IMG/VR virus record: IMGVR_UViG_3300045988_096557
Reading direction: 5' to 3' (one strand)
Length of the DNA: 56,927 bases
DNA from: a virus
The notes beneath the pieces were generated by a model. The model was not told the DNA's origin, searched no databases, and worked only from the letters and a program-made list of their open reading frames with translations. Position 1 is the first letter of the stretch. Each line of letters begins with the position of its first letter. Shown here in pieces: positions 3,384 to 43,349 of the stretch. Made by a program: the position numbers and the translations under genes.

Positions 3384-3433
3384 AAAAAATGGGGAGAACC
3401 TTGAAATTAAGGTTCTCCCCATTTTTTTTTATT
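3384..3433. terminator. Bidirectional rho-independent terminator between convergent genes.
   Basis: A9-TGGGGAGAACCTT-loop-AAGGTTCTCCCCA-T9, a perfect 13-bp stem flanked by an A-run and a T-run. Confidence 0.75.
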
Positions 3434-4211
3434 TTACATCAATGATAATAATAGCAATATCATTTGTTGGTTTTTCTTTTGTATAAAAGGTAATTCCAAC
3501 CCCAACTGATGCATCAGCGTGATCAATTTTACTATACTCTTCAAGATTAGAAGTATAACTAATAATAGGTGGCACATTACCTGCTTTTCCGCAAGTTAAA
3601 GAAGTATTGGAATAAGTATATGTATACATATCTTCATTTAATACCCAACCTGATGCAGAAAGAGTTGCTGGATAAGCTGCCGTAGTACTTCCACTAATCT
3701 AGTTATCTGTTTCCAATTTGCTATACACATCTAAATTAGTTCTCGCCCCTGCTGCATTAATTGCCCCGGTTCCACCAACTGAAATTGGAAGCGTTCCAAA
3801 TTGCGGAGCGCCAGCTGTAGCGGCAAATAAAGCGCCAGTTCCTTGCAATCCTGTTACACCATTCTCGCTATTTCCGATAACAACCTAACCAGCCGCAATT
3901 TCAACCATCTTTACCGCATTAGTTCCATTACCAATTAATAAAGCATTTACAGTTAGACTATTATGTCCAGTTCCGCCCTGAGCTACAGTGGCAGTCATAT
4001 TTTTAAGAAAAATATCATCAATATCAATCTCAGTAATATCATTCTTTAGAACTTGAGCAGCATAGGCATTTACCTGCAAACGCCCACCTTCTTCATTACT
4101 AATATCAATAAAGAGATTTCCTTTATCTTCTGTGAAATAAGCGTATCCTTCATGAAGAGGTACACTATTCAAATTATCTTCTGGTCCTCGAAAAATCTTA
4201 AATAAAGCCAT
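3429..4211 (-). CDS. Tail fibre protein, about 260 aa, with 2 in-frame TAGs.
   Basis: ORFs 3885..4211 and 3429..3629 are in the same frame and are joined by a TAG-only stretch. N-terminus MALFKIFRG...GYAYFTEDKGNLFID, Gly-rich repeats such as GGTGAINAAGAR, and a ribosome-binding site AAGGAGGG. Confidence 0.65.
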
Positions 4212-4244
4212 TTTAGGCCCTCCTTTATACTCTCTAAATATAAA

Positions 4245-6155
4245 TTAAGGTATTAAATCACTAAAACTTCCCCAAGATAACAACTCTTCTATCTATTTGG
4301 CAGAATATGTCTATCTATCTTTATTTGTAATAGCTCCACCGATTAAAGTGTTGATATAATGAACGCTATAAGTTTTATTTGTTACCTCTCCACCATCTTC
4401 ATTATTATAATCATTATCAATAAGGTTAGCAATACCTCCGGTTAGTTGAACTCTTCCCCATACTCCATCGGCTGCTTTATAATACCAATAAGAAGTTTCC
4501 TAATTAGTCTCATATTCAACCCAAGTAATAGAGAAAATATCCTCTGCGCTGATTTCTCCATCGTAATTTTCTTCGATGTAATTTACGCCATTCTATAAAG
4601 AATCCTTAATTGTTTCAGTTTCGTTAATAGTGTAACTTTTAACTATTTTAAGAGCTTCTCCAACAGGACCTTTTAAGTTTCCTTTATTCTTAACCCATGT
4701 TCCATTAGAGCTTAATGAATAAATATCTCCTGTATCAGTATTTAAATACAAATCTCCTGTTTTAGCTCCATCAACAGTAACATTTAAAGATGTATCAGAA
4801 ACAGCTAATCCAGCAAATAATTTAGATCCTCTTGGAATCTAGAAATCAAGATTTACTGTATCAGAAGAAATAATCTTACTAGAGACAGATCCCTCTTCAT
4901 CAATTCCTATAAAATCAAAAGAAACTCCATATTTAACCGCGGATGGAAGCCCAAAGACAAGTTTCCAAGCGGTTTCTTCCGTATTAGTAAATTCTCTTAC
5001 TACAGTAGGTGCAGTTGGTTCATACCCGCTACCACCATTTGTATAAGGGTCTAATTTTGTTACTTCTATTTCAGGTAATGGAGACTAAATACAAGCAACA
5101 TATTGGAAAGTGCAAGTTGTACCCGACTTCTTTGTTACCTTGTAAATAAAACCGGTCGGTGCATTAATATAATAATCACCAATATTATAATCTGCAAAAG
5201 CTTCATTCGTTTCTTCATAAGTTCCAGCAGTTCTTTCTCCTAATAATTCACCATAATAAAACTTAATAGATTCTGGTAAACTAAATTTTAATACCGGAGA
5301 ATTAATATTAGTATTATCTATCTAAACTGATGGGTTTTCCTCTGGACCTACAATAATAGTCTCTGGATTTCCCATTACCTAGCTTTGAGGTAAAAAGAAA
5401 TTAATAACTGGATTATTTATATCATCAAAATTTATCTCAAAATATGGTGTTTCATTAGAATCAAGAACTGTTGTAGTTCCTTCCTATAATGATTGAGATA
5501 CAGGTAATTGGAATTTAATTGCCGGTCTATTTATAGAATAAGAACCAGACGTTTCTAAGGATACTGTAGGTTCCTCTCCAACATTTAATAATTCAACTAG
5601 CGCCGTTTCAATAACTTGTGATTGTGGCAAAGATAATTTTAAACTTGGATTATTTATATCTGTTGTATCTAATTTCACACTAGGATTTTTATTGCAATCT
5701 AGAACGGTTGTTTCACCTAATTGAATATTTTGACTCTAAGGTAACTAAAAAGTTAGCCACAATCTATCTAAATCTGTATTATCCCAAACTACATTTGGAT
5801 CTTTATCGGCATCAAGAACTTCCGTATCATGTAGGCTAATTCTTGGTGTATTTCCTGTCATGGAAGCCTGCATCTCATAGCTTAGGCCGCCCGCAGATCC
5901 ACTTCCATCTTTATCATTAAAAACTTTTTTCCAAAGGGTAGAGTTATAACTTTTACCATAATTCTATAAATCTTCATTCTTATAAATATCATAATTTGCA
6001 TCACTTGGCAAACCATACGATACAATAACGAAATCTCCAGGGAAAATAGAAGATGTCCAACCCTTTGTTAAATCTCTATCCATCTAATATTTACTAGTAA
6101 AGATTTGCTTAATTTCAAAATCTATACCTTTAGGTCCTCCATAGAAACTCTCCAT
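4245..6155 (-). CDS. Tail or fibre-associated structural protein, about 636 aa, with about 13 in-frame TAGs.
   Basis: Hand translation stays open in frame from ATG (ribosome-binding site TAAGGAGGTG) to TAA 4245-4247. It contains repeated NPS.KLSLPQSQV-like units, and ORF 5484..5678 is in the same frame. Confidence 0.5.
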
Positions 6156-6169
6156 AGTTTGACACCTCC

Positions 6170-6763
6170 TTATACATAAATAAAGTCAATAATGACATTA
6201 TATAAATCCTAATAATTTTCTGGAGCATCAACATTATCAGGATTTGGTAGTACATAAATGCCATTTACCCCCTGATTATATAAGCTTAATGCTGTCTAAT
6301 AAGCCTCTATATAAGCAGTCTGAATATTATTATATGCGTCCCAATAAGCCTTATACCCTTCTGGATCGGTATCTTGATCTGGCATATCTGGATTTTCTTT
6401 ATAAAATCTCTCCAAATCTTCACTCCTTTTTTTATCTGCGGCTTGCATTCCCGCAGTTCCTTGTTCAATAGCCTACTGAGATGCTTCTTCGTCTTTTTCA
6501 TACTTTCTAGGTCTAATAAAATACATATTAGTAATAGCTATGTCATCATCTAGTTCATATATTCCAGTTCTACCAACCATAATAGTTTTTGATTCATTCA
6601 TAACTATCTTGGTCCCAGCAGGAGCCTATACTCCAACTTTATTAAATTGAGAGGCCCCCACTTGGACAACAATATCACTGAATATATTCTACCCACTAGA
6701 AACATAACTACCACTGTTGTTATCTATTACATTATAATATATTTGACCAACAGTTGGCATTAT
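6170..6763 (-). CDS. Hypothetical virion protein, 197 aa, with 5 TAGs.
   Basis: Ribosome-binding site AAGGAGGA plus ATG. The frame is open to TAA 6170-6172, and the stop lies inside the ribosome-binding site of the next gene. Confidence 0.45.
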
Positions 6764-6779
6764 CTCCTACTCCTCCTTA

Positions 6780-8681
6780 TACTCTTGTTAATACTTCCGT
6801 GGCTGTAATACTCATAGTTCCATTATATGAAAGAGGTAAAGTGAATTGAGTTATCTAATAATTTCCACTAAGTCCACTGTCTTTATCTTCAACATAAAGA
6901 ATATTATTTGGTTCCATATAATATTTTGGTAAACAAGTAATGGATATAGTTGTATTATAATTTAAATTCTAATACAACATTTCTCTAATTTTATCAAAAC
7001 AACTCGCATTTGTGGAGCTTATTGAAAATAAATTATAATACTCAGAAGTAAGAACAAAAAATCTCTAACCAATTCCTCTATATTCTGCTATCAAATCCTG
7101 GTCTAATCCTTCAATAAATATAATATCAGGAGCTTCTATATTATATACGGAAGTTATATCAGAACTATTAATTACTTTAGTCCTTCTACCTATCTCATTT
7201 ATTGAATATTTTCCAATTTCTGAACCGGTATCTATAAAATCTAGCCAATAGTTTAGATTTCCTGGATTATTAAATACATCTGGATTCCAATGATTATATT
7301 CATCCCATTTCTCATTTAGTGGATTATATAAATTGCGCCATTCGGCGATTAATTCAGAGTCATAGTAATTATCATATACACTATTTGTTACTTGTGCGTT
7401 TAATGCTCTACGATATAATTCCTCTCTCCACTCATCGCACGGAGATCCAACTAATTCTACTTCATATCCTGATATTGAATAATCAGAAGATATATTATTA
7501 AAATCATATCTTATAATTAATCCCGTCTCTTTATCACTCACAGCCCACATATAATATCCTGCTAAGTCAATTATTGGTTTGGTATCAATAGCAAGATGAT
7601 ACCTAATATCAACTTCTATTCCAGATGTAGTGGTTCTCTTTCCCCAAACATAAAAATCATTTTTTATATTATCAAACTTTGGACTGCGGGTTATGGCTGT
7701 AGTAGTATCAAGATCGGTTAAAGAGTATAAAAACTTAGCATTATTATAGCTCTTTACATAATTTTCTGGAGATAACTCTGTTAAAGGACTTCCAGTATTA
7801 AGATAATTCTTTATCTCCTAAAAGATAAAGCGACCATCTATATCATAAAAATACTCAAAATTTCCAAGAACTTCAACTATTTTATCTAATAGAGTAGTTA
7901 CAGTATCTCCAGCATCTAAAATTAATTCTCCCGGATAAGTAAATTCAGTTTCTCTATATCCAGCATCCTATCCATAACTTATCATATGAGGAAAATCAGC
8001 GCTTGGAGAAAAGTTCATACTTTCATAATTATTGCTAAAATATATGGGTTTATCTCCTATATATTTAACCAACATCTTACAAGTTTCTTCTATGTCAGTA
8101 ATAATAATATTTGTTATAGCCTCTCCGCCCCAATGGTTGACTGCTTCATATATAATTTGAAAGATAGTTGGATATACAATTTCTATATCTCCATCTTTTT
8201 TCTATATATAACTTTCATGAAAGGTTATAGAGCCTGGAAATGTCCCTCCTGCGGTTCCATCAAGTAAACACATTTTATCTTTTCCACTTATAGAGATTGT
8301 CCATCCAGAAGTGGATCTTGCTACCGATGCGTTAGATAAAACAAACAATCCACAAGGGAACCAAATTATGTCACCATAATTTGCATAAGATTTTAAGGGA
8401 TTATTATATCCAACAAAAACTTTAACCTTCTTATTTATTGAAATCTCATTATCTATATTTTCAATATCGCTATTATTCTCATTAGCTAACATAGTTAGGT
8501 TAATTGTTCTACGAACAGAGGACGATCCATTAACACTTAAACTACCAGCAGTTATGTTACCCTATATTTCTCTAATAGGTTTTTCATCAAAAGAAAGTAA
8601 AATAATTTTTGCGTAATGAGTTTTAATATTTAATTTATCAAGAGCTACAAGGAAATCCATATCATTTAAATAATCAAACAT
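6780..8681 (-). CDS. Tail tip protein with a prophage-tail endopeptidase-like N-domain (Tal-like), about 633 aa, with about 8 TAGs.
   Basis: ORFs 7065..7550 and 8202..8492 are in the same frame. The N-terminus LSFDEKPIREI.GNITAGSLSVNGSSSVRRT resembles the Sipho tail / Tal N-domain family. Overlapping ATGTTTGA junction with the upstream gene. Confidence 0.5.
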
Positions 8682-11463
8682 AATACTATTCCACCTTCAT
8701 GCGCATTTGATTTGTTAAACATTTATAATTTATTACACAAAACTAAGCACTTTCTAAAGCTATATATTTAACCATATTATCTAATGGATTAAGAGTATAC
8801 CTTCCAGTTGGACCAATCTTTATAATAGACGGATTACTTCCATCTGGACTAGAACTAATTAAAAGGGTAGTTCCTTCATCCGCCTCAATATCAAGTAAAA
8901 CAATATCACTAAAAGTATAATAAATCTCGCCATCTGTCAACTATCCATCATCATTTAACTCGAAATGAGTATTATATATAAGCTCAACTTGTTTCTATGT
9001 TTCTTCTTTTATTATCTCATAAATATTAATGGTTTTATATAGATTAAAGGTTGTATTATCAACAATAGTATCTCCCTATTTATCCTTGACTAAAAACTTT
9101 TCCATATTTGGTGGAACATTACTAAATATACGATAAGTTTCACTGTTTCTATAATCGTAATTATAGAATTTTAAAACTCCATCTGTACCAGTAAAAATTC
9201 CAGAAATCTATCCCCAAATGCGAGAAGCATCAATAGCAGAAACGACTCCAACAGAAACGTCCTCAACCTAATTCAACTAGCAAACATAGTTTACAACAAT
9301 AGGAACGCTAGACGCGGACAAAGATAAAGAATTTACATTTTCATTTAAATGATAAACTCTATTTGGAGCAACTAAAATTCTTGAACCATTAACATTAATT
9401 TCGATAGCTGCGGATTCAGGGCCATCAAGAGCGAGAATCAAATCTTTACATTCCTAAATCTGTCTATCATATTCAGAAGTATCCTCGTCATCTCCCGCGG
9501 CTTCAGATTTAAGAGCTTCTAATTCTAGTAATCGTGCAGTCAAATCTATTTTTGGATATTGCTCAATCTAAATATCTGTAACTTGAATTAAATTAAGTTT
9601 ATATCCTCCGCCTATACTAACCTCTTCCTGCTCTCTTATCTTCGCATATAAATCTATATTTCTACCATAAATTCCACTTAACTATCCGAAAGAATTTATT
9701 CTATCTTCGCTAGCCAAACTTTCAAATTTACCAATATTTATTATATTAACTTCATTTAAATTTTCTATGGTATTCTCTAAAACTTCATACGCAGTAGCAG
9801 AAAAGGAGTAAATCATGCGGCCGACCGTATTATTCGGAGTCAAAGATACATTCAGCAAGCCTATAATTATATTTCCTTCGGTAGAAGATTTAAAGAGCTT
9901 ATAATTAAAATCATTTAAAAATTCTTCCACTTTTTCTCTAAATATTCTTTCAATAAAAATATTATCATTTGTTAAACTAGTTGAGATAGATAATTTATTT
10001 TCATCTGTAGAAACTTCAGAATAAGTTTCCTACTTCTCTTGACATTTTCCTCTGGTTACATTGTTTTTAATAAATTTGTCTTTGGGAATTACTAATTCAT
10101 TATTGTAATAAAGTCCATCATCTTTTAAAGAGAAAAATGTCTAATCTTCATCCATCTAAAAACTTATTAATCCAGAAATTGGAAACTCTGCATAATAAGC
10201 CTTACCATTCTAAACCAAATGAGGATATTTACTTCCTAAGGTATCTTGTTTACTTCTTAAAGTAGTATGTTTAAAGCTGGATAATGTCTAATTAAGAGAT
10301 AACTTTAACTATATATTATCCCTATAAATATAGCTATATTGGAAATCAACACTTCTACCTTGGTTACTTGTATCATATACCTAAGAAGTCCGCAACCCTG
10401 CTGAATTTTCCTATTGTATGGCATATTTATATCTTATACCACTTTCAATAGCAAAATCAACATGAATAACTGAATCATTTAATACTTGATTAGAAAATTT
10501 AAGATATTTTAAATCTTCCCATATCTAATAATTACTTTTTTCAGAACTTCTTGTTATTACATAACTACCACTAAGTCCATTTTTAGCGGTACAAAATATT
10601 TTTATACAACCATTTTCTCGACAATATACATCATTATCTTCAACTCTAATAGATACTCCCTCTAAATCTCCCAAATAGGTCCTATTAACTGAAAAATTAT
10701 AAGGCTCTGATTCTCCTTCATATTCATTAATAGTAATAATAGAGTAGACTACTGTATAGCTTTTATTATTGGTTAACACGGTTTTAAATCTATAAGTATC
10801 GGTATTATTAATAGAACCATTGTGCTATAACCATCCAGATGTTTCAAGTAAATAATTAGGATCTTTAGAGGCTCCTTCATACAAATCAAATTTATATCTA
10901 TCCAATAATTCATTACTAGCAGAGCTAATATTAAAGCTTCCTATAAACAAAGGAGTAAGAGTTGCCTCTATTCTTTCAGTAGATATAACATCTTCTCGTT
11001 TAGCTTCATCGTTTTCTATTTTAATAATTGGTGTATCTATAGCCTTGATTATCATTACAGTAGACCATTCAGAAAAGGCTCCCGCATCTATCTGCTATTG
11101 TTTCCAAGTGGCAAATTCTGATAACGAAGTATACATTGGATTTATACCAAAACGCATTTGTACTTTGTATAAATAGCCTGGCTACCAAGATTCGGCTAAT
11201 TCGCTTCTATTAATTGATACAAAATATTGATTTCCTAAAGACCCTATCGCAGAAGGAGCTTTATAAATAGTTCCATCTGGATATTGGTCTGTATTTACAA
11301 TACTTTTATTATTAGACTAACGAACTAGCCGCACTTGTACATGACCTATGTCATTAAAAGACGTAATTGGCTATAGCGTAAAATTTATCTAATATACGTT
11401 CACGCTAGAAAGAAATGCTGGCTATGTACTCTACAAAGTAGGCGGATAAATACTAATTGGCAT
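8674..11463 (-). CDS. Large distal-tail (Dit-position) protein with FN3-like modules, about 929 aa, with about 30 TAGs.
   Basis: ORFs 8743..8940, 9682..9930, 10525..10779 and 10825..11055 are all in frame 1. Hand translation runs uninterrupted from ATG (ribosome-binding site AAAGGAGG) to TGA 8674-8676. Confidence 0.45.
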
Positions 11464-11920: not shown

Positions 11921-11940
11921 AATTAAGACTCCTTTTTCTC

Positions 11941-15600: not shown

Positions 15601-16610
15601 CCTAACAAAACACTTACATCTCGCTCAAACCACTTACATTTACAAGTTTGTTCATCTATTATATTATCGCCCTAATAAATTAATCGACCAACTAAATCAA
15701 GAGAAGAGATCTCGTTGGTAAATGAATTTCCTTGCGGGGTCGAAATATCTAAATAATATAAATTATCTGTTAAATCTTTCTGTTCAACAAACTAAATCTC
15801 TATATCCTTTACAAAAATGTTAGGTACAGTTCTATTCTCTTTATCTGTAACTACACCAGATTCCACATAACGATCATAGACAAAATTTTCTTCAAATAAC
15901 TTAATCTATTTAAGTCCAGTTAAATAATTTTTTTGAGCCTTAATAACCACAGATTGCGGGCTGTAGACCTAAAAGCGATAGGGGTCTCCATTAAAAGAAC
16001 TTAAATCAAGCTTATAAGAAACTATATCTCCACTTTTTGTAAAGAACTATATATCTAAACCATAATTTCCTTTGGTGTGTTCACAATGGAAAGTAGTTAA
16101 GAAAGAGGCTTTTATTCTAATAAGCTCATTGTTATTTGCATACTATTGGAATAGTCCATGATATCCTTCTTCATTACCACTATAAATAATCTACTAACTT
16201 AAATCACTATCTGCTGGTGCGCCTGCTACGACGCCCCTTTCCGCATCTTTGTCATAATCATACATTGTATCAAATGTTGGGCTTTTTTCTATTATTGAAT
16301 TAGAAAGCGACAGCATCTCTCCATATGATAATGATTGTTCATTTATCTTACAAACAATTCTTTTTCTTGCAGATAAATCATCCTGGGGAATAGTAACATA
16401 TACAGTATCCCCTACTTTATACTGCTTTTTTACATCATCCGCAAAAGCAGAAACTATATTTCCAGAATATTTAACTTTATACTCTCCGCTATCAAGATTA
16501 ACAATACTACTAATCTCTGCTGAAATAGTCTTATCATAAGTTAATTTTGATAGTGCTTTATCAACTAGAATATCTATCGTCTAAAAGATAGATTCAGAAG
16601 CAGTATTCAT
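12696..16610 (-). CDS. Large tail fibre / host-specificity protein, about 1304 aa, with about 40 TAGs.
   Basis: ORFs 13410..13772, 14520..14723 and 14892..15257 are all in frame 0. It contains repeated IGGWI(I/L)SxN...G fibre-type motifs. Ribosome-binding site AAAGGAGGA, and stop TAA 12696-12698. Confidence 0.55.
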
Positions 16611-16633: not shown

Positions 16634-16668
16634 GGGATAATAGGGGAGGAAATCTCCCCTATTATCCC
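16634..16668. other. Stem-loop (GGGATAATAGGGGAG...TCCCCTATTATCCC) at the boundary between the tape measure protein (TMP) and the fibre gene.
   Basis: A perfect 14-bp inverted repeat. The TMP stop codon (16662-16664) lies inside it. Confidence 0.4.
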
Positions 16669-27541: not shown

Positions 27542-27600
27542 ACTCCTATATCTCCTTATAAAAAGAAAAAGGGAGGACTTTATTAAGTCCTCCCTTAAAA

Positions 27601-28992: not shown

Positions 28993-29006
28993 GAGCTAAT
29001 TCCTCC

Positions 29007-29732: not shown

Positions 29733-29748
29733 TAAAGCTAATCTATAA

Positions 29749-30285: not shown

Positions 30286-30300
30286 TTCAATTCACTCTCC

Positions 30301-32123: not shown

Positions 32124-32142
32124 GGCTATAACCTCCCTTATA

Positions 32143-32676
32143 TCAATCAGAAATAGCTACTCTGCGTTTTGGAGTATCCTCACTTGTAGTTGACACTCTT
32201 CTTACAGGTTTCTCTTCCTTAGGATTCTTTTTATCATCTGCTGTTAATTCTAATGCTTTAGTAACATTAAATCCTAATTGTTTTTCCAAAGCATCTCTTT
32301 TAGACATATCATTTAAAGGAAGAGAAATAGCATGGGATTTAATCAGATCTTTAGTGCCTTCTGGAGCAAAATCAAGAGCATCCTTAAATTCATCTAAAGA
32401 ACACGTATTCATCCAAGAATCAATCTCTTCTTCTTTCATCCAATACTCTGGTTCAACCCTACCATTAATAAGATATTCAACAATCTCTCTATCATCTACA
32501 AGTAAGTAATTATAAATTAATTTGCGGCCTCCAGGCGTTTGTACTAGCTTTTCTAGTTCAGATACTTCAAGTTCCTTGTGTTCTCCAGGATAAAACATAC
32601 GGCGCACGCCCAATTCAGGCAATCTATATACAACACGACCTGCGCTCTTGTTATAAACAGTGCAACTATTTTTCAT
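32143..32676 (-). CDS. Hypothetical protein, 177 aa (no TAG).
   Basis: Intact ORF downstream of the capsid gene. Confidence 0.5.
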   Translation of the reverse strand: MKNSCTVYNKSAGRVVYRLPELGVRRMFYPGEHKELEVSELEKLVQTPGGRKLIYNYLLVDDREIVEYLINGRVEPEYWMKEEEIDSWMNTCSLDEFKDALDFAPEGTKDLIKSHAISLPLNDMSKRDALEKQLGFNVTKALELTADDKKNPKEEKPVRRVSTTSEDTPKRRVAISD

Positions 32677-32740
32677 AATTTTTATCTCCTTTTTCTCAAT
32701 AAATAAAAGGGGATAGGGATATTTCCCTATCCCCTGTCAA

Positions 32741-33793
32741 TTAACCATTATTTGGATTTGGGTTAGTATTATCAAGCTCGCCTTGAAGTTCAGTATCAAC
32801 ATAAGAGAAGATGTTATTCGCCATCATTACACCGACACCAACCTTACGGTAAACCTGAATATCACGAGACCAGTCGTCATTATCATCGCGTTCGCGCACG
32901 TGGGTAGTACCCTCAAAAGCAACTTTTACAGGACGGCTCTCAGCTCCACCAGGAATAATCCAAGCATAACCTGGATCGATCATCTTTTTGGAGTTAGTCT
33001 CATCCTCAAGAGTTTGGGGTAGAATTACCACTCTAGTTCCCTTGTAATTTGCAAGATAACCAGTTCCCCAATACTGATCTCTCATGTTGTCAGAAATCCA
33101 AGCATCATTATCTGGAATCATTTTTACTGCAAACTCACGAGTGCAATAAATAGTTGGCTGACCATAAGCAGTAGCAGTATTTACAAGATAATCCATAGTT
33201 GGTTCGTCAAAACCAGCAACAGCACAACGGTTTGCTGCGGGAAGCTGATTGATAGAACCCATAAGAGCTTGAGCAATCTCTCTATAAATAAGCTCTTGCA
33301 TACCCTCTGTTACAATTTGAGTAAGTTCTGCAAAGTTTACTCTTCCATCAAGGAACTCCTCAAATCCGATACGAGCAGCTCCACCAATGGCGCTTGTTCC
33401 AACTTCGAAGCTCTCAGAACCAAGCTTAAAGGTCTCATACACACCAGCAAGCCCCACACGAGTAATGAATTGCTTAGCGCGAGTAAGTCCAGTTCTACGA
33501 GTAAATACAGGCTTGTCGCCTTGTGCGAAAGTTCTAATCTCAGCAAAATTGCCATAAGAATTGAGTAAACGATTAGGAACAACTTCGTCCATAGTCTGCT
33601 CAATTAAAGAGAATAGAGTATTTTTATTTTCTCTATAAAGTTCATCTGTGCCAACAAATTCATTTAGCTCATTACGCAAAGTAGTATTTAAAGCGTCATA
33701 GCTAAAAGACTCTCCTTGATAGCTATAGGTACCAGAAGGATTTGCATTAGCGACAGTTTTCATTAAACTAAGTAAATTAGCTTTATCTAACAT
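32741..33793 (-). CDS. Major capsid protein, 350 aa (no TAG).
   Basis: Intact ORF in the capsid position after the scaffold/decoration genes. Composition and length fit a major capsid protein. Confidence 0.55.
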   Translation of the reverse strand: MLDKANLLSLMKTVANANPSGTYSYQGESFSYDALNTTLRNELNEFVGTDELYRENKNTLFSLIEQTMDEVVPNRLLNSYGNFAEIRTFAQGDKPVFTRRTGLTRAKQFITRVGLAGVYETFKLGSESFEVGTSAIGGAARIGFEEFLDGRVNFAELTQIVTEGMQELIYREIAQALMGSINQLPAANRCAVAGFDEPTMDYLVNTATAYGQPTIYCTREFAVKMIPDNDAWISDNMRDQYWGTGYLANYKGTRVVILPQTLEDETNSKKMIDPGYAWIIPGGAESRPVKVAFEGTTHVRERDDNDDWSRDIQVYRKVGVGVMMANNIFSYVDTELQGELDNTNPNPNNG

Positions 33794-33812
33794 TCTTCTT
33801 CACTCCTTCCAA

Positions 33813-34502
33813 TTAACCTACACGCTGTACTTTTACACCAGGTTGAAGATCTGGCATAGTATACACTTTTACTACTGCAAAGATAGGATCTAAATCTCCA
33901 CCTTTAGCAGAAGTTTCAGTATCTTTAGTTAAATATCCATCAGTATCAATCTTTAGACGATCGCCTACTGCAAGCTCTCCGGCATTAGCCTTAATGGTAT
34001 TAGTAGTCCAAATATCACCAATACTAATCTTAATTACGCGAGGTACCATTTTAGTTCCTTCTGGCATCAATGCAGGATAAGTAAATGTCTCCATATTTTT
34101 CTTATATGCTACATCACTACCTTCGCGTACAGCTTCTCCGGTATAATCACTTATTGTAGCAAGTGTAGAAACTGTTTGTCCAATTGGACTATATACACGA
34201 GCATTATAATTATCCTTAATCATAGCAAAATCAGCATCAGTTTCGCGATCTCTATAAATCTTTACTTCATTAAATACCATCATCCAGGCGCCAGAAGTAG
34301 CTTCCGTACTAAAATCGCATACGCCTTTTGCATAATCATACTTTACAAATTGACCGTTCTCAAGAATCTCAATAGCGCTAGCTGCGGGAAGCTGAGCATA
34401 TACTTGACCATTTCTTGGAGCGGAAAGATGGTTTGGCTCCACTTGACCATATCCATACTGGACAAAAGTGGCATTACCTAATCTTTTAGAACTCTTAGCC
34501 AT
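33813..34502 (-). CDS. Capsid-associated protein (decoration or scaffold-like), 229 aa (no TAG).
   Basis: Intact ORF between the protease/scaffold-like gene and the major capsid protein. Confidence 0.4.
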   Translation of the reverse strand: MAKSSKRLGNATFVQYGYGQVEPNHLSAPRNGQVYAQLPAASAIEILENGQFVKYDYAKGVCDFSTEATSGAWMMVFNEVKIYRDRETDADFAMIKDNYNARVYSPIGQTVSTLATISDYTGEAVREGSDVAYKKNMETFTYPALMPEGTKMVPRVIKISIGDIWTTNTIKANAGELAVGDRLKIDTDGYLTKDTETSAKGGDLDPIFAVVKVYTMPDLQPGVKVQRVG

Positions 34503-34515
34503 TCTTTAATCCTCC

Positions 34516-35775: not shown

Positions 35776-35789
35776 GTTCAATCCCTCCT

Positions 35790-37415
35790 TTATGACGAAC
35801 TTTCTTGATTAGCTATTGTCTTATCTGACTTTTCGCCATCTTCTTTTTTGGGCCTGCCGGCTCCATTAGTATTAGTTGAACTTGTCTACTTATTCTAAGA
35901 ATTAGTTTTAGATGACTAATTATTATTACCCAAATCTTTTCCGCTTCTGGTATTAGAACTCATAGGCGGAATCATAATTTCTGCTAAATTCAATACTTCG
36001 TTCTCAAATGTTAATGTAGCTAATATACTCGATTGAGAATGACCTAAAGCAATCTGTGGCAACATCTTAGAATAACCCAGTTGAGCGTGCTCTTTATATA
36101 ATTTAGATAACTCTTTATAATTAAACTAAGTAGTTTCTAACATTTCCGCTCTAAACTCATAATGATTTTTGCGATTAAATTTCTCTACTACTCGATTTAA
36201 TAAATCTGTAAACATGAGAGGAATATCTCTTACGCTAGATTCATCTGTCAAAATAGAATTTGTAACTGCAATATTGCCATCTGCATTAAACAAATTATGA
36301 GTTACACCTGAGTTATTATAAACTGTACGTTCAACTTTTTCCAAATCGTCTGTCGTTGTATTAGAATTATTATCTTTTGTATCAATTTTTTCAATATCTG
36401 CAAAAGTTGTTAATACATCTACACCAATAGCTCGTTTTAACATAGTTACAGCATTATTATGAATATCCCTTGCTTCATCAACATCAAAAATCAAATCTCC
36501 ATTTTTATCAAGAGGCAACTTCTAAATAATAATTTTTAATAATTGTTGCATTGTCTTTTGACGATCTAATTCTTGCGCTTGATCTAAATCAATAATAGAA
36601 GGAATAACCCCAGCTAGAAAAGGAAATTCATTATCATTTAGACTAAACTTTACAGAAATACTAGGATCTAGTGGATACCATACAGTAGTATCACCTGGAT
36701 AATCCCCTTTTAATTTTCCCTGTTTATAAAGAATATATGCCTTTTGAATGTCCTGTGGAAAAATCTTTAATATCTAGATTTTATACTGCGGATTGGCAAA
36801 ATAAGTGTCAAAAAACTAAAGATTTAATTCTACTATTGGATTAGGGCCCTAGAAATATCTACTTCTGCAATATGAAGCTGGTAATTTCTAAATTGCAAAT
36901 CTATCTCCAAAATCAACAATTACACCATAATAAGCTCCTTCTTTAATAATATCTAATGATATATTTCCAAGCATTCTCTTCACACTAGATTTATCAAGGT
37001 AAAGCAAGACCTTTGAAAAATCTTTCAATAGCTTATCTTTATCTTTCTACGCGTCTACTGTGTATGGAGTAATATACCAATCAAATCTATATAAGAAGGC
37101 TAAATATTTACATAATCTATAATAAATACCGCTACTTTCATAAAAGTAATTAGAAATCTCTCTTAAAGTCTTGTAATCATGCTTATAAATAGCATTTAAT
37201 ACAAACTTTTTATCTCCATAATTTCTATTTATCTTTTTATATGTGCCTAGATTAATAAGCGCATCATCCACAGACCGTAATCCAACTCGCATTTTTGCAT
37301 AATCAACAGTATCATAGTTCAAAAAATCTTCTTCCTATTGATAACGAGTAATAATACCTCGATCTAGTAGATCAAAACCTTTAGCTCTTATTTCTTCCTA
37401 TCGACGTTTTAACAA
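35790..37415 (-). CDS. Portal protein, about 541 aa, with about 13 TAGs.
   Basis: ORFs 36126..36518 and 37047..37322 are in the same frame. TTG start with a ribosome-binding site GGAGGTG, and stop TAA 35790-35792. It sits between the terminase and protease/scaffold genes. Confidence 0.55.
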
Positions 37416-37432
37416 AATATCACCTCCAGGTG

Positions 37433-37789
37433 TTAATATCCAGCTTTACTCATTAAATAATCATAAGAGATGATATTTTCCTCCGTATAGGGAACTTCAA
37501 TGAGGGTAATACCTTTTAATGCACAAAATCTACGCTTTTGATTATCATTATATTTCTATTGGTATAATCCTCTATTTCCACCAAATTTACTAACAGCCTA
37601 ATAATGCTATTTACCCTGATACTCAATTAAAAAATCAAGATTTCCATCATCATCAAAAACAGCAAAATCAAAACGAAGTGGCCTACCACTTGGTGCTTTC
37701 AGCCCAGGAAACTCATACTCTTCTTTAAAGTTCATGCCATTTTGCTCTAATATCTCATGAATTTTAATTTCTCCACGACTGGCCTTCAT
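37433..37789 (-). CDS. DUF559 / Vsr-like endonuclease domain protein, 118 aa, with 3 TAGs. Probably a freestanding homing endonuclease inserted between the terminase and portal genes.
   Basis: Motif RFDFAV...DFLIEYQGKQH, matching the DUF559 signature (yivDF...IEvDG..H). It starts 4 nt after the terminase stop. Confidence 0.55.
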
Positions 37790-37792
37790 ATC

Positions 37793-39538
37793 TCACACCT
37801 CACTCATAAACATAAAATCTGAAAATCTTCTACTTTTACGCTTGCGTTTACTATCTTCTTCCTATTTAATATAATATAATCCATATTCAAGCGCAGAGAA
37901 TTTATCTTTGGGCACAGACTTATTTGCCTGTTTTAAAATAATATTTACACCCTCATTTTCTTCTCGCAAATTTAGCATTTCTTCTCTTAATATAGAAGTT
38001 AAAGTGAATGGTTTTAAATATTCTGCCCGCTCTTCTGGTTTCATGGCTTGACCTTTCTTGGTACCAAGTAATTTATTTCTAGCAACTTTTTCGTCGATTA
38101 AAAATCTTAACTTTCCAGCCCGCAACTATGTCTAAACATTGCTATGGGCTTCGGTATTAATTGGCGCATTTGCCTTAATTTCATAAATAGCATCATATTC
38201 TGTATTATCTGTTCTAAATCGTTTGTATTCTCCATCTTCATCATTAGCTACACCAAAATCAGGAAAAACTTCATTGGTATCTGGCACTATTTGTGGTTTA
38301 ACCATATAATCCATCAATCCAGCACCAAGTCCATTACCGTCAATAACAATAATTTTAGCTTTATAATCATAATATAATCTTTTTAGCTTAATTGCCTAAT
38401 CTTCAAAATGTTCATCATCCATAGTATATATATTAACAAGAGACTTAATCGCTGGTCCTTGAGACTGAGGGGTTACTTTAAATACACATACAACAGATTG
38501 ACATTTCTTTCTTCCTACATCAACAGAAAGAACATAATATGCTTGAGCAGAAGAGCGCCCGGAAGATTCATATTCAGGCTAAAGCAATTTTCTACTTCTA
38601 TCAAAAGCATCACCATTAAAGAAGGCATCTTCTACGGTGCCACTCCATTTAGATTCATACTCTCTATCAAATGATGCTTCATTAAATGTACCATCTTGTT
38701 TTAACTCCTATACAAAGTTGCGGGATTGCAATCCCACTAGCACAGGAATTCTCCATGTTCCGCCCATTACAATACTCTTTTCGGGTTCTAGTATCATGCG
38801 CACTAGCAAAGTAATCAACTTATTATATGGGAATGTGTTTTTCCACCCCGCAGTAGTTACATAAATCTAAGATTTATTAAGTGTTTCTTCTTCATGAACA
38901 GATCCGTCTAAACATCTTCTATCAACGTTCATTAGAGGGATTAAAACTTCATTTAAAATATCTCCATCTACACCAACGCACTCCTCAATTAATCCTCCAT
39001 GTCTACGCTTACCACGAGAAGATTCTCTAGCCGCGACGTTGTCAAAATAAGATCCATTTTTGAAGATATACTTACAATAATCTTTTCCTTCCTAAGTCTT
39101 ACCTCTTCGCCAATCAATCTCTCTCTAAAGTGCGGGAATCGCATTACAAATTTCCTAGACTTTTTCTTTTGCAATACCTGCTGCCTATTCTTTTCCGCCA
39201 GAAGTAATGAATAGCTTACATCCAGGATATAATATACATCTACACATAAGTACCATTACTGATAAGAATGACTTAGAATAAGCACGGGGAAATACCATGT
39301 ATACATACTTATATCTCATGGCCGCCCGCAAGAAAACTCTCTAATAAAAATAAAAATTAATTTCTTTTTTTCTTGTCTCGTCTCCGCCGGTCTACAAAAA
39401 GTCAATAAACATATCTGGATATTCTCTCCAAAAAGCTATATACTATCTTGCTGCTGGAATTATCGCACGAACTCTTTCTTCGGAAAGACCAATTTTCTTA
39501 TTATTATTTGAAAGGTTTAATAAATCTTTTAATGCCAT
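37793..39538 (-). CDS. Terminase large subunit, about 581 aa, with about 14 TAGs.
   Basis: ORFs 37862..38125, 38132..38317 and 38989..39174 are in the same frame. A deviant Walker A motif FPRAYSKS, and a nuclease-domain motif IIVIDGNGLGAGLMDYM. Ribosome-binding site AAGGAGG. Confidence 0.7.
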
Positions 39539-39541
39539 ATA

Positions 39542-40711
39542 TTAAACCTCCTTTAATATATTATTTAACATTTCCTCATCTTTGTCTCTTTCCGACTCTT
39601 TCATATCTTCATACTCTTGATAATCTTCTTCTGTTAATTCTGGATGCTCGTAATTAAATAAATCTTCATCCTCATCGCTATCTTCAACATCAATATTTGC
39701 CTCGCGTTCTCTGTCTTTAACTATTTCTCTTAACGAAGCTTCGATCATATTACCAAGATTCATTTCCTCTGTAACTAGAGTATGAGTATATTGCTGTAAA
39801 TCCTAAAGAGTTCTATCTACTTTATCTTGTGGCCCTTCCGTATAATATCTAGGAATAAAACCCTCTCTTTCACAAAGGGCTACTAATTCACCTATTGAAT
39901 CTACAAATTCACCGGATTCGCCTTTGTTCTAAGCAGCCGTAAATTTGCCGCTTTTCATTAAACTATCATAGGCTTTTTGCATCTTCTAAAAGCCATCAAT
40001 ATCTCCAGCATCAATTAACTAATTTGCTTTTAAACTAGCTTTACATACCATAATAAGAGTATCTTTATGACCTGCTCCTTGAATATCATAAGAACTCATC
40101 ATATCATTATAAAGCTGCTCCATTCTTACTCTTTCTTCCCAAGAATATCCGCGGCCCCATTTAAGACGTAATACTAATTTATCTTCTTCGGTTAGCTAAT
40201 CACCAAAATCATCATCTTCCTCTGGATCTTCATATTCTGGAGTTCCTACAGGGGCCTAAACATCCTCTAATTCTTTTGGTTTTGGAGGAGTTCTATCAAT
40301 AGACAACTGCTCTTGAATTTCATCTTCTGTAAATCCTTGAGCCTTCATATTAAGAACTTTTTTATCAATGGAATCTTTCTCTAGCGTTTCTGTATCTGCC
40401 CAAGTGTATTTATTCCATTGCTTTAATTTCATTTTAGATAAATAGCGTCCAATAATAGTTAATCCAGTAACTTTCTTTGGATCTTTTCCATATTTCTCCA
40501 ATAAACCATTCCATTCTTCTTTAATATATGGAACGTCAATCTCCTATAAAATCCATTTATAAGTTTCTGGATCCCAGTTATCTACGTGCATAGTAAGACA
40601 CTTTTTACAAATATCCATCTTTCCATCTGGAGGATACTTCTCTAAATTTTTTGATGTATAAAACTATTTATCATCCATAGTTTTACCACATTTTTTACAA
40701 TAATGGCTCAT
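39542..40711 (-). CDS. Putative DNA-packaging / terminase small subunit-like protein with an N-terminal CxxC zinc ribbon and an acidic C-terminus, about 389 aa, with 8 TAGs.
   Basis: ORFs 40256..40501 and 39542..39763 are in the same frame. The N-terminus reads MSHYCKKCGK...CKKC. It lies immediately upstream of the terminase large subunit. Confidence 0.4.
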
Positions 40712-40717
40712 TTATAA

Positions 40718-41788
40718 TCAACCTCTTTTCTTATTGCGACAGCGCTTACAGATACTATACAAATTATCCTTACTTGTCTTATTCTTTGAAAAGAATTGAT
40801 TATGGGCTGGCTTTAATTGCCCACACTTAGAACATTTTTTCATTGGGTATCCTTTTTGTTTATACTACCAACGTAAAAAATCTTCTAAAGCTTCTTCCGC
40901 AATGAGTTTAGGAATCTTATTTCTCCATAGGCTAGAAATATATTCAACGCTATATGTTTTACCAAACTCATTTTTTAATATTTCCTATATTTCGTTATTC
41001 TACTTTTTATCAATTTTGAGTTCAACAATTCGTAAATAGATTGGAAAGTCTTTGAGAGCTTTATCACATATTTCTTCAAATGATTGAATTAAATACCATG
41101 TATCTCCCTCAAACTAATCATAACTATCTTCTTTTAATTTTGAATAATTGCATAAAATAGCAGAAACAACATTGGCGTCCATTAGCGAAATACCCTTTAC
41201 TACTACCTCCTGTCCATTAAGATAACTCTAATCATCAAGAGGAATATGAGTTCTTACGGATCTCGTTAATTTACATGGTATAATAGGTTTCTAATATGCT
41301 TGCTTAATGATATACTAATCTTTTCGCATCTCTATTAATGCTTTTTTCATCATATATGCCTATTTTGTCCCAGCAGCGCGTTTTAAAGCGCCCTCCCAGA
41401 CATTAATGGTTTCTCTCAACTATTTTAAACATGGTATAGTATCTAAATCTTTCTGTGTAATAGAAATCTTTGGCTAAAATATAACATTTTTATTTTCTGA
41501 CATTAAACCATAAATGCCATCCTCGCCATTTTCCATCTATGACGCAAGCCCTTCGAAAGAACATTCTCTTTTATTAACAGTAGCCATTCTATTATCTGTT
41601 AATATATTCTTTTCTTTCTTCTCTTGCTTTTCCATACATAGAACTAAATAATCTGCTAATATTTCTAAATAACTCGAACTAAGGTTCGGATTTTCTGCGA
41701 TTATTTTTTCGACAAGCGCCTTCCGTTCTTCTGGAGACTCAATAGTATAATCTAATTTTATCATACTGTCATCTCCTTTTATACTCAT
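40718..41788 (-). CDS. DNA-binding protein with a C-terminal zinc ribbon (CSKCG...CKRCR), about 356 aa, with about 12 TAGs. It is the first gene of the late operon.
   Basis: ORF 41537..41788 extended in frame to TGA 40718-40720. Ribosome-binding site AAAGGAG. Confidence 0.4.
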
Positions 41789-43348: not shown

Positions 43349-43349
43349 A

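What the first reader, a model, noticed from the sequence alone, without database searches (positions are those of the whole stretch)
3429..41788. Genome-wide TAG stop-codon reassignment (probably to Gln): the late operon is unreadable under the standard code
On the minus strand between 3.4 and 41.8 kb, the supplied standard-code ORFs are short fragments. However, fragments kilobases apart share a single frame.
- 17082, 21897, 23823 and 24237 are all in frame 0.
- 8743, 9682, 10525 and 10825 are all in frame 1.
- 13410, 14520 and 14892 are all in frame 0.

Hand translation through the intervening stops shows that every interrupting stop is TAG. No TAA or TGA occurs until a clear gene end that has a ribosome-binding site and ATG for the next gene.

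Reading TAG as sense restores recognisable proteins. Examples are a terminase large subunit with its deviant Walker A and nuclease motifs, a portal, a roughly 2900-aa tape measure protein with a typical C-terminus, and fibre proteins with GGWIxS repeats.

The same holds on the plus strand.
- The FolD homologue needs 4 TAGs read through.
- An HNH endonuclease needs 2.
- The DGR reverse transcriptase needs 3.
- A 110-codon ORF with 6 TAGs has no TAA or TGA.

Genes terminate at TAA or TGA. Where an annotated ORF ends at TAG (Avd-like, FolD), an in-frame TAA follows within 7 to 52 codons.

This is the signature of amber-recoded phages (code 15, described for crAss-like, Lak and other gut phage clades). 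No suppressor tRNA or release-factor gene is visible in this window.
Basis: partly seen in the sequence, partly recalled or inferred. Interest (0 to 1): 0.9.

Follow-up and report, generated by a model that had tools for sequence, protein, structure and literature searches.

The report
Amber-recoded (TAG=Gln) gut phage late genes

Summary
On the minus strand, 3429-41788 holds 26 tightly packed genes: 12,582 codons, 288 in-frame TAG, no in-frame TAA or TGA. Coding density rises from 47% to 91% when TAG is sense, against 51% for the TGA-sense control.

TAG means Gln on three independent lines:
- Residues opposite 180 TAGs in standard-code homologues fit Gln best, by 32 log-likelihood units.
- In 80 relatives, the codons opposite the 14 TerL TAGs are 71% CAA, CAG or TAG. 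In relatives with at least 95% TerL identity they are only those three.
- Contigs 98-99.9% identical to the window carry a tRNA(CUA) with a Gln-like acceptor end.

"Genome-wide" overstates it. The early block 42995-52087 and the replication genes are almost TAG-free. The HK97-fold capsid protein and two neighbouring head genes exclude TAG, in the window and in 52 recoded relatives. No release-factor gene exists anywhere in the tiled genome.

The phage is an SPbeta/Enterococcus-EF1-like siphovirus, not crAss or Lak. It resembles the published phAss-1 and "Agate" groups. Public protein collections already hold its TAG-to-Q translations.

Interest is modest.

The parts
3429..41788 (-). Late (virion) operon: 26 genes readable only with TAG as sense. 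It holds 288 in-frame TAG, 0 in-frame TAA/TGA, and TAG makes up 49% of Gln-type codons.
40718..41788 (-). First gene of the operon: a sigma-factor-like protein with a C-terminal zinc-finger/HNH-like tail; 11 TAG.
   Evidence: phrog_5767 'sigma factor', E=3e-38; TAG count
39542..40711 (-). Conserved gene upstream of TerL (phrog_3314, function unknown); 8 TAG. It has homologues in Enterococcus phage H1 and Geobacillus E3.
37793..39538 (-). Terminase large subunit, 581 aa, 14 TAG.
   Evidence: tblastn gives 48-50% identity over 93% of the length to standard-code phage TerL. Five of the TAG sites align to Gln that is conserved in all three standard-code homologues. Codon interchange in 80 relatives is shown.
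35790..37415 (-). Portal protein, 541 aa, 12 TAG.
   Evidence: phrog_2739, E=3.9e-79
32741..33793 (-). Major capsid protein (HK97 fold), 350 aa. It has 0 TAG despite 13 CAA/CAG codons.
   Evidence: AF2 model plus Foldseek: 288 PDB hits, with the 50 listed all capsid or encapsulin shell proteins. P(0 TAG) = 1.5e-4. 37 of 43 homologues in recoded relatives also have 0 TAG.
33813..34502 (-). Head gene next to the capsid gene (229 aa), 0 TAG.
   Evidence: 37 of 38 relatives have 0 TAG
32143..32676 (-). Head-module gene (177 aa), 0 TAG.
   Evidence: 39 of 39 relatives have 0 TAG
27601..28992 (-). Virion structural protein (probably the major tail protein), 463 aa. It has 0 TAG despite 12 CAA/CAG codons.
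   Evidence: phrog_2729; P = 2.9e-4
26099..27541 (-). 480-aa protein of unknown function with 19 TAG (73% of its Gln-type codons).
   Evidence: no PHROG hit
16662..25388 (-). Tape measure protein, 2908 aa, 102 in-frame TAG.
   Evidence: homologous to the H1 'tail protein' and the E3 tape measure
12696..16610 (-). Tail/fibre protein, 1304 aa, 27 TAG, with IGGWI(L/I)S repeats.
8674..11463 (-). Tail/baseplate protein, 929 aa, 28 TAG.
3429..8681 (-). Distal tail genes of 634, 196, 636 and 260 aa, with 7, 5, 13 and 2 TAG.
   Evidence: phrog_1887 tail protein
41891..42223 (+). 110-codon ORF with 6 TAG and no TAA/TGA.
   Evidence: called as a 110-aa gene in the public collection
42210..42995 (+). FolD homologue, 261 aa, 4 TAG. 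The last TAG lies inside the conserved C-terminal domain.
   Evidence: Pfam PF00763 + PF02882; NCBIfam matches run end to end
42995..52087 (+). Early block of 14 small genes, including PARG-like, PTH2, an AbrB/MazE-like protein and an exonuclease-like protein. It has a single in-frame TAG, higher GC, and is compatible with both codes.
54350..54964 (+). HNH/NUMOD4 homing-endonuclease-like gene, 2 TAG.
1067..2284 (+). DGR reverse transcriptase, 405 aa, 3 TAG.
   Evidence: PF00078; TR/VR pair
133..627 (+). Gene in the Avd position of the DGR cassette, 164 aa, 2 TAG. The standard-code call stops at 112 aa.
   Evidence: no family hit

Best explanation
The window is 57 kb of a roughly 146-kb SPbeta/EF1-like siphovirus from the human gut, whose host is probably a Clostridia-class Bacillota.

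**Shown**
- In this phage TAG is a sense codon for glutamine.
- It is the commonest Gln codon in the late virion operon, and it is also used in lysis, RuvC, DGR, FolD and homing-endonuclease genes.
- Genes end only at TAA or TGA.
- In near-identical genomes, decoding is provided by a phage-encoded tRNA with anticodon CUA.
  - It sits in a small tRNA cluster (Ser-UGA, CUA, Leu-CAA, Cys-GCA).
  - That cluster lies about 5 kb downstream of a main array of 27-28 tRNAs plus a tmRNA.
  - All of this lies on the part of the genome that the window's own 88-kb contig lacks.
- The tRNA has an unpaired 1:72 position and G73, like tRNA-Gln.
- Early genes carry no TAG.

**Inferred**
- The tRNA is presumably charged by host enzymes.
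- Early genes can be translated by the naive host, where release factor 1 still terminates at TAG.
- Late genes cannot give full-length products until the suppressor tRNA has accumulated. Recoding therefore acts as a translational lock and timer on virion and lysis genes.
- The first gene of the late operon is a sigma-like factor with 11 TAGs, so late transcription may itself wait for suppression.
- The most abundant virion proteins (capsid, two head proteins, major tail protein) avoid TAG. This is presumably because each TAG carries a termination or slow-decoding cost that scales with expression.
- A 102-TAG tape measure implies per-codon read-through of at least about 97-99% late in infection.
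For: **Recoding**
- Coding density rises from 47% to 91%.
- The late operon has 288 in-frame TAG and no in-frame TAA/TGA across 26 genes, most with a ribosome-binding site.

**Gln identity**
- Opposite 180 TAGs in standard-code homologues, Q is 21% of residues, against 18% self-conservation for genuine Q. The log-likelihood for Q beats the next best residue (E) by 32 units.
- Codons opposite the TerL TAGs in 80 relatives are CAA 417, TAG 201, CAG 178 of 1120. In relatives with at least 95% TerL identity only TAG, CAA and CAG occur.

**tRNA(CUA)**
- It is found at L024 15921-15996, L025 15919-15994 and L109 5943-6018. The L109 copy scores 59.8 bits against Rfam tRNA.
- These contigs chain to the window at 98.9-99.7% nucleotide identity.
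- The unpaired 1:72 position and G73 are conserved in the CUA tRNAs of relatives, and acceptor positions 2-6 equal those of the phage tRNA-Gln(UUG).

**Early/late gradient**
- 1 TAG in 14 early genes of the window.
- 0 TAG in the next 15 early genes, 0 of 52 Gln codons in DnaE, and 1 of 30 in NrdD.
- 0 TAG in GyrA, GyrB and ligase, but 9 in the endolysin and 9 in RuvC.

**Capsid exclusion:**

**Published precedent**
- Babkin et al. 2023 (PMC10607447).
- Borges et al., bioRxiv 10.1101/2021.08.26.457843.
- Metaproteomic proof of code 15 in crAss-like phages, PMC9523058; only the abstract was seen.
Against: - The suppressor tRNA is not in the window or on the window's own contig, NODE_79 (88 kb, an incomplete genome). 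Its presence is inferred from six or more near-identical contigs.
- tRNA sequence similarity alone does not single out Gln. Overall identity to the phage tRNA-Trp, Cys and Ser is as high as to tRNA-Gln.
- No release-factor, RF1-inhibitor or aminoacyl-tRNA-synthetase gene was found (and the Pfam lists). How RF1 competition is overcome at 102 TAGs in one ORF is unexplained.
- The host is unknown, so the statement that the host uses the standard code is an inference.
- The timing model is untested here.
Confidence: 0.95

Rival explanations
1. TAG is reassigned, but to an amino acid other than Gln (for example Trp, Tyr, Leu, Ser, Glu, Lys or pyrrolysine).
For: ARAGORN labels the CUA tRNA 'Pyl'. 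Overall similarity of the CUA tRNA to the phage tRNA-Trp, Cys and Ser is as high as to tRNA-Gln. One relative has a 91-nt CUA tRNA with a long extra arm.
Against: The 'Pyl' label is ARAGORN's default name for the CUA anticodon; that point is from my own knowledge. The likelihood test puts Q 32 units above E, 37 above N and 41 above K, and far above W, Y and L. Close relatives swap TAG only with CAA or CAG. No pyl genes were seen.
Confidence: 0.03
2. The in-frame TAGs are not decoded. The region is a decaying or defective prophage, or an assembly or sequencing artefact, and the long frames are coincidental.
For: Standard-code gene calling gives only fragments. Some public annotations (JGI) list 112-aa and 52-aa 'hypothetical protein' fragments.
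Against: Only TAG interrupts the frames, with 0 TAA/TGA in 12,582 codons; the chance for the tape measure frame alone is about 1e-110. The exact 581-aa TerL occurs on 550 independent contigs. TAG sites are conserved or exchanged with Gln codons across relatives of 67-98% TerL identity. The contigs are phage-sized, 141-150 kb.
Confidence: 0.005
3. The host itself, not the phage, reads TAG as Gln. The phage simply mirrors its host's code and there is no temporal regulation.
For: The host is unidentified, and no release-factor manipulation genes were found in the phage.
Against: The phage carries its own tRNA(CUA). Early and replication genes avoid TAG almost completely while late genes use it for half of all Gln codons. 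That pattern is unexpected if TAG were an ordinary host codon. Standard-code and TGA-recoded relatives sit within the same TerL family. From my own knowledge, no bacterium with TAG=Gln is known. Borges et al. predict standard-code hosts for all but their code-25 phages.
Confidence: 0.03
4. TAG has a dual meaning: sense inside late genes, but still a functional terminator for some genes where the last TAG lies near the C-terminus (for example 133-627, where the standard call ends at codon 112 of 164).
For: In several genes the last TAG is followed by a short tail before TAA. Suppression in early infection must be incomplete.
Against: No early gene ends at TAG: 0 in-frame TAG in 13 of the 14 early genes of the window and in the 15 early genes of relatives, so none terminates there. 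In FolD the NCBIfam family alignments continue past the last TAG to the end of the models.
Confidence: 0.1

Closest known systems
phAss-1 group / proposed Phassvirus and its wider monophyletic group (Babkin et al. 2023, PMC10607447), including BK048656_ctOa11
   Same: These are human-gut phages of about 133-148 kb with siphovirus-type genomes and roughly 3000-aa tape measures. TAG is read as Gln in TerL, portal, tape measure and fibre genes. They have large tRNA sets including tRNA-Sup(CUA) and no dedicated aaRS. The probable host is a Clostridia member. TerL of the window is 44% identical to phAss-1 TerL. BK048656_ctOa11 (147,880 bp, GC 35.33%, recoded, with tRNA-Sup-CTA) matches this phage in size and GC.
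   Different: This phage is only distantly related to phAss-1 itself: GC is 35% against 44.5%, there is no nucleotide match, and one CUA tRNA was found rather than three. Identity with BK048656_ctOa11 could not be checked because that record is not in the available collections.
'Agate' clade and other gemstone clades of stop-codon-recoded gut phages (Borges et al., bioRxiv 10.1101/2021.08.26.457843)
   Same: Both have large genomes, infect Firmicutes, and have late and lysis genes recoded while replication genes are not. Suppressor tRNAs are present. Close relatives use code 11, 15 or 4; here, of 56 TerL-family loci, 46 look TAG-recoded, 8 standard and 2 TGA-recoded. A homing endonuclease is recoded in both.
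   Different: Membership in Agate could not be tested because no reference sequence was at hand. The analysed Agate lineage is TGA-recoded. Two TAG-recoded Agate phages carry RF2, and this one does not.
crAss-like and Lak phages using code 15
   Same: TAG is read as Gln, late genes are preferentially recoded, and the phage encodes suppressor tRNAs.
   Different: The lineage and host phylum differ: those infect Bacteroidota. TerL here is related to SPbeta, EF1 and Geobacillus E3 phages of Bacillota, and the replication module carries YorF/YorH SPbeta markers.
Enterococcus phages H1, EF1 and VRE9_4, Geobacillus virus E3 and Alicyclobacillus phage KKP_3916 (standard-code relatives)
   Same: The virion module is syntenic, with TerL 48-50% identical and homologous portal, capsid, tape measure and tail genes.
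   Different: These phages use the standard code, with Gln codons where this phage has TAG.

Membership tests
Code-15 (TAG to Gln) recoded phage | Conserved genes are interrupted by in-frame TAG only, never by TAA or TGA. | tested here: met
   The late operon has 288 TAG and 0 TAA/TGA in 12,582 codons.
Code-15 (TAG to Gln) recoded phage | Coding density and gene length recover under code 15 but not under code 4. | tested here: met
   Density is 47% under the standard code, 91% with TAG as sense and 51% with TGA as sense.
Code-15 (TAG to Gln) recoded phage | TAG positions align with glutamine in homologues. | tested here: met
   Q is the best fit by 32 log-likelihood units. 71% of codons opposite the TerL TAGs in 80 relatives are CAA, CAG or TAG.
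Code-15 (TAG to Gln) recoded phage | A phage-encoded suppressor tRNA with anticodon CUA. This is common but not universal in the family. | tested here: met
   It is absent from the window. It is present in contigs 98-99.9% identical to the window and in more distant relatives.
Code-15 (TAG to Gln) recoded phage | Recoding is concentrated in late structural and lysis genes, and early genes are compatible with the standard code. | tested here: met
Code-15 (TAG to Gln) recoded phage | A phage release factor 2 gene. This is an optional accessory seen in some Lak and Agate phages. | tested here: not met
   There is no GGQHVN-type motif and no RF Pfam hit across the tiled ~146-kb genome (gene tables).
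Code-15 (TAG to Gln) recoded phage | Gln is physically incorporated at TAG (proteomics). | not testable with these tools
   This needs LC-MS/MS of virions, as was done for crAss-like phages (PMC9523058; abstract seen).
SPbeta / EF1 / phAss-like large siphoviruses of Bacillota | Homologous TerL, portal, capsid and a giant tape measure in a syntenic module. | tested here: met
SPbeta / EF1 / phAss-like large siphoviruses of Bacillota | An SPbeta-type replication module (YorF, YorH, DnaB, DnaE). | tested here: met
   Pfam PF27337 YorF and PF26927 YorH are present in L026/L027, which overlap L011 at 98.7-99.4% identity.
Agate clade (Borges et al.) | Placement in the TerL phylogeny with Agate reference genomes. 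| not tested
   No Agate reference sequence was available. The resemblance rests on genome size, host phylum and mixed codes among relatives.
crAss-like (Crassvirales) or Lak megaphage | TerL and capsid homology to Crassvirales or Lak, with a Bacteroidota host. | tested here: not met
   In the listed TerL hits in the phage collection, every named-host phage is a Bacillota phage. The first-word organism tally is dominated by Bacillus, Lactococcus, Enterococcus, Clostridium and Clostridioides.

The most novel reading that the evidence does not exclude
The code change may be deliberately incomplete and managed by the phage.

- TAG decoding stays costly or leaky. TAG is therefore purged from the highest-copy virion proteins, an exclusion conserved in 52 recoded relatives together with a switch to CAG.
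- The phage brings a ribosome-rescue and tRNA-handling kit:
  - its own tmRNA;
  - an ArfA-like peptide, which would recruit RF2;
  - a PTH2 peptidyl-tRNA hydrolase;
  - a YqeY/GatB-tail-like protein that could assist Gln-tRNA(CUA) formation;
  - a Thg1-like enzyme.
- That kit would clear ribosomes and peptidyl-tRNAs lost at TAG and keep suppression efficient enough for a 102-TAG tape measure without any RF1 or RF2 gene.
Probability: 0.15. Interest if true: 0.6.

Novelty: new member of a known kind. Interest (0 to 1): 0.3.

Why it matters
**Practical point.** Standard-code annotation destroys about half of this abundant gut phage's proteome. The JGI fragments are one sign of this. Another is PHROG families 15503 and 24618, which each cover about half of TerL and so look like its two halves. 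Pipelines must therefore test code 15.

**Biology.**
- The locus is a clean, deeply sampled example: its exact TerL protein is on 550 contigs.
- It shows late-gene amber recoding in a Bacillota phage family that contains standard, TAG-recoded and TGA-recoded members.
- That mix makes the family useful for studying how codes change over short distances.
- It also allows study of why the most abundant proteins stay off the new codon.

**Limit.** None of this overturns current understanding.

Tried and rejected
**Searches that found nothing**
- Megablast of 27000-41800 against the phage collection gave no match.
- Pfam found nothing for TerL, portal, capsid or tail proteins.
- PDB sequence searches for the three TAG-free virion proteins gave nothing usable.
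- ARAGORN and Rfam found nothing in the window.

**Tool constraints**
I worked around this with ids from the listing of cluster members.

**Suppressor tRNA search**
- The main tRNA array of 27-28 tRNAs has no CUA anticodon.
- I examined an odd 117-nt tRNA-like gene with a ~44-nt insertion (L014 17459-17575) as a candidate suppressor. I rejected it because it contains no CTA.
- A tRNA-Sec-like hit turned out to be tRNA-Tyr(GUA).
- The true tRNA(CUA) lies about 5 kb further on.

**Other checks**
- A release-factor search by GGQ motif was negative.
- TAG positions along genes are uniform and match those of CAA/CAG. There is no 5' clustering.
- Host assignment from bacterial genome bins gave only whole-phage contigs mis-binned with Oscillospiraceae, Eubacterium and Lachnospiraceae MAGs, not integrated prophages.
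- The 'Avd-like' label could not be confirmed.

Full report
**1. Observation**

The window is 56,927 bp with 35% GC. I picked non-overlapping ORFs of at least 60 aa greedily under four stop-codon sets.

| Stop set | Coding density | Mean ORF |
|---|---|---|
| Standard code | 47.2% | 120 aa |
| TAG as sense | 91.4% | 310 aa (longest 2908 aa) |
| TGA as sense (control) | 51% | 123 aa |
| TAA as sense (control) | 73% | 145 aa |

The TAA-sense value is inflated by the AT-rich sequence.

On the minus strand, 3429-41788 becomes 26 genes with gaps of -41 to +105 nt. Of these, 23 have a Shine-Dalgarno motif. Together they hold 12,582 codons, 288 in-frame TAG and no in-frame TAA or TGA. From the off-frame TAA+TGA density (0.084 per codon), a 2908-codon frame free of TAA/TGA has a probability near 1e-110.

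The plus-strand claims also hold:
- FolD has 4 TAG, HNH has 2 and the RT has 3.
- The 110-codon ORF with 6 TAG is at 41891-42223.

The window has no tRNA and no Rfam family hit.

**2. The restored proteins are real**

- TerL (37793-39538) aligns over 93% of its length at 48-50% identity to the terminases of standard-code Enterococcus phages H1 and VRE9_4, Geobacillus virus E3 and Alicyclobacillus phage KKP_3916. It is 44% identical to that of phage phAss-1, which NCBI files under 'Caudoviricetes code 15 clade'.
- In PHROGs, TerL matches two families that each cover about half of it (15503 for the N-terminal part, 24618 for the C-terminal part). That pattern suggests the families were built from standard-code fragments.
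- The portal matches phrog_2739.
- FolD matches both Pfam domains, and matches NCBIfam FolD models end to end only if all four TAGs are read through.
- The whole virion module is syntenic with Enterococcus phage H1.

**3. Which amino acid**

Three lines of evidence agree on glutamine.

- (a) I aligned all window proteins, with TAG masked as X, to three standard-code relatives.
  - 180 TAG positions faced a residue, and Gln was the commonest at 21%. Genuine CAA/CAG Gln is conserved at 18% in the same alignments.
  - The log-likelihood of the observed residue spectrum is best for Q. It beats E by 32 units, N by 37 and K by 41.
- (b) I tallied codons opposite the window's 14 TerL TAGs in 80 IMG/VR relatives (TerL 67-98% identical).
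  - The counts are CAA 417, TAG 201 and CAG 178, together 71% of 1120. The next commonest are AAA (58) and GAA (35).
  - In relatives of at least 95% TerL identity only TAG (60), CAA (6) and CAG (4) occur.
- (c) The cognate tRNA (section 4) has Gln-like acceptor features.

**4. Where the decoder is**

*Origin of the window*
- The window is 100% identical to part of an 87,967-bp ENA contig (NODE_79), which is an incomplete genome.
- Exact TAG-to-Q translations of its proteins are already in the public protein collection. The 581-aa TerL is on 550 contigs, up to 149,786 bp long.

*Tiling the genome*
- I used proteins at the window edges to tile the full genome of about 146 kb through contigs that overlap each other and the window at 98-99.9% nucleotide identity.
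- The order after the window end is as follows.
  - About 9 kb holding 15 small genes with no TAG.
  - An 11-kb array of 27-28 tRNAs, a tmRNA and an ArfA-like peptide.
  - An AAA ATPase.
  - A second tRNA cluster: Ser-UGA, CUA, Leu-CAA, Cys-GCA.
  - Accessory genes, lysins, gyrase, ligase and the SPbeta-like replication genes.
  - A variable island and the DGR target gene, which leads back to the window start.

*The tRNA(CUA)*
- It lies at L024 15921-15996 and L109 5943-6018. The L109 copy scores 59.8 bits against the Rfam tRNA model.
- It has U1·U72 unpaired, G73, and acceptor positions 2-6 identical to the phage tRNA-Gln(UUG).
- The unpaired 1:72 position (U·U or C·U) and G73 are conserved in the CUA tRNAs of more distant relatives.
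- From my own knowledge, these are classical tRNA-Gln acceptor features.

*Release factors*
- No class-I release factor is present. The evidence is a GGQ motif scan of the tiled genome and the Pfam lists.

**5. Not uniformly genome-wide**

| Gene set | TAG usage |
|---|---|
| Late operon | 49% of Gln-type codons |
| 14 early genes at 42995-52087 | 1 TAG in total |
| Next 15 early genes (relatives) | 0 |
| DnaE | 0 of 52 Gln codons |
| NrdD | 1 of 30 |
| GyrA, GyrB, ligase | 0 |
| Endolysin | 9 |
| RuvC | 9 |

This is the early/late pattern described by Borges et al..

Within the late operon, several genes have no TAG despite 8-13 CAA/CAG codons each:
- the capsid protein (32741-33793);
- the adjacent 229-aa gene (33813-34502);
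- the probable major tail protein (27601-28992).

The probabilities of this by chance are 1.5e-4, 4e-3 and 2.9e-4. The nearby 177-aa head gene (32143-32676) also has no TAG, but it carries only 2 Gln codons.

I confirmed the capsid identity by structure. The AF2 model has mean pLDDT 62. Foldseek gave 288 PDB matches at E <= 1e-3, and the 50 listed are all phage capsid or encapsulin shell proteins.

The exclusion is conserved. In 52 recoded relatives the TAG share is:
- 0.02 in capsid homologues;
- 0.00 in the two neighbouring head genes;
- 0.15-0.47 in the surrounding late genes.

The three TAG-free head genes also switch from CAA-rich to CAG-rich. I did not find this point in the two papers I consulted; the Borges preprint does not contain the word 'capsid'.

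**6. Mechanism**

*Shown*
- TAG is Gln.
- A phage tRNA(CUA) exists in the lineage.
- Early genes are TAG-free, while late and lysis genes are TAG-rich.
- There is no RF gene.

*Inferred*
- Early genes and the tRNA genes are expressed in a standard-code cell. Accumulation of tRNA(CUA) then unlocks late proteins.
- The first late gene, a sigma-like factor with 11 TAGs, may couple late transcription to suppression.
- High-copy virion proteins avoid TAG because read-through is costly.
- A 102-TAG tape measure requires about 97-99% or better read-through per codon, since 0.98^102 is about 13%. How RF1 is outcompeted is unexplained.

**7. Comparison with known systems and novelty**

- TAG-to-Gln recoding of late genes with phage suppressor tRNAs is established for crAss-like, Lak and several other gut phage clades.
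- It is also established for the phAss-1 group, to which this phage is related.
- That paper lists BK048656_ctOa11 (147,880 bp, GC 35.33%, TAG-recoded, with tRNA-Sup-CTA). It matches this phage's size and GC, but I could not verify that they are the same.
- Of 56 TerL-family loci, 46 look TAG-recoded, 8 standard and 2 TGA-recoded. This resembles the mixed-code 'Agate' clade.
- The finding is therefore a correct diagnosis of a known phenomenon in a lineage that is probably already catalogued.

I rate interest at 0.3. The conserved TAG exclusion from capsid genes and the phage's ribosome-rescue and tRNA toolkit are the only parts that might repay further work.

Noticed in passing
window 32143-34502 and 27601-28992 (-); relatives L202-L281: TAG is completely absent from the HK97-fold capsid gene, two neighbouring head genes and the probable major tail gene, although it makes up half of the Gln codons in the rest of the operon. 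In 52 recoded relatives the TAG share is 0.00-0.02 in the three head genes against 0.15-0.47 in the flanking genes. Those three genes also switch from CAA to CAG.
   Followed up: yes
window 1-2284 (+) and L011 8291-9919: A canonical diversity-generating retroelement. The template repeat is at about window 658-760. The variable repeat lies at the 3' end of a 542-aa Big_3/DUF6273 target gene that straddles the window start (L011 9803-9905). All 20 mismatches fall at TR adenines. The RT is at 1067-2284. The ORF 690-980 in my TAG-sense list overlaps the TR, including its (AAC)9 run, and is probably not a real gene.
   Followed up: partly
window 43573-44762 (+): Two adjacent TAG-free early genes: a PARG-like macro-domain protein (PF10021) and a PTH2-type peptidyl-tRNA hydrolase (PF01981, 80.5 bits).
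   Followed up: partly
L014 8039-19119 (near-identical relative, downstream of the window end): An 11-kb array of 27-28 tRNAs, a phage tmRNA (tag DNDYFENYLAA) and a 52-aa ArfA-like peptide. The peptide scores 24.9 bits against PF03889, just under the 25.5-bit cutoff, and is named 'Alternative ribosome-rescue factor A' in nr. The window's own contig breaks before this array.
   Followed up: partly
L014 17459-17575: A tRNA-like gene of 117 nt (Rfam tRNA, 49.8 bits) with a ~44-nt insertion in the anticodon arm, sitting just after tRNA-Gln(UUG) and tRNA-Gln(CUG). ARAGORN misses it. Its anticodon is unclear, and it may have an 8-nt loop containing UUA.
   Followed up: partly
L014 11077-11134: A twister-P1 ribozyme-like match (51.7 bits, below the 67.2-bit gathering score, E=3.8e-9) immediately upstream of tRNA-Ser(GCU).
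   Followed up: no
L109 19847-20296; L188 10899-14869: A free-standing YqeY/GatB-tail-like protein (PF09424, 35 bits) in a TAG=Gln phage. By my reading of the translations (no family search run), the neighbouring ORFs look like NAD-salvage genes (NAMPT-like, NadE-like) and a Thg1-like enzyme.
   Followed up: partly
L109 8066-12442: A DUF2828/DUF7788 protein next to an 813-aa protein with a major-vault-protein shoulder domain. The pair is conserved across many large phages (80 IMG/VR loci).
   Followed up: no
window 52100-54300: A GC-rich island (0.48-0.55, against 0.35 overall) that is only 74% identical between phages otherwise 99% identical. Public gene calls and my own reading disagree on the coding strand: a 158-aa protein on the plus strand at 52832-53308 looks genuine.
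   Followed up: partly
window 37793-39538 (PHROG hits): PHROG families 15503 (N-terminal part) and 24618 (C-terminal part) each match only about half of TerL. That pattern suggests the families were built from standard-code fragments of recoded phages.
   Followed up: no
L261, L262 (IMG/VR relatives, TerL about 70% identical): These two relatives look TGA-recoded. Their coding density is 0.84-0.87 with TGA as sense, against 0.73-0.74 under the standard code. The TerL family therefore contains code 11, 15 and 4 members.
   Followed up: partly
L112 6344-6434: A more distant relative has a 91-nt tRNA(CUA) with a long extra arm directly abutting tRNA-Ser(UGA). It keeps the U1·U72 mismatch and G73.
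   Followed up: no
L011 2221-6266 versus L012 and L014: The region between RuvC and the DGR target is mosaic. The window's contig has a resolvase/M78-peptidase island there, whereas L012 joins the tRNA array directly to the DGR.
   Followed up: no
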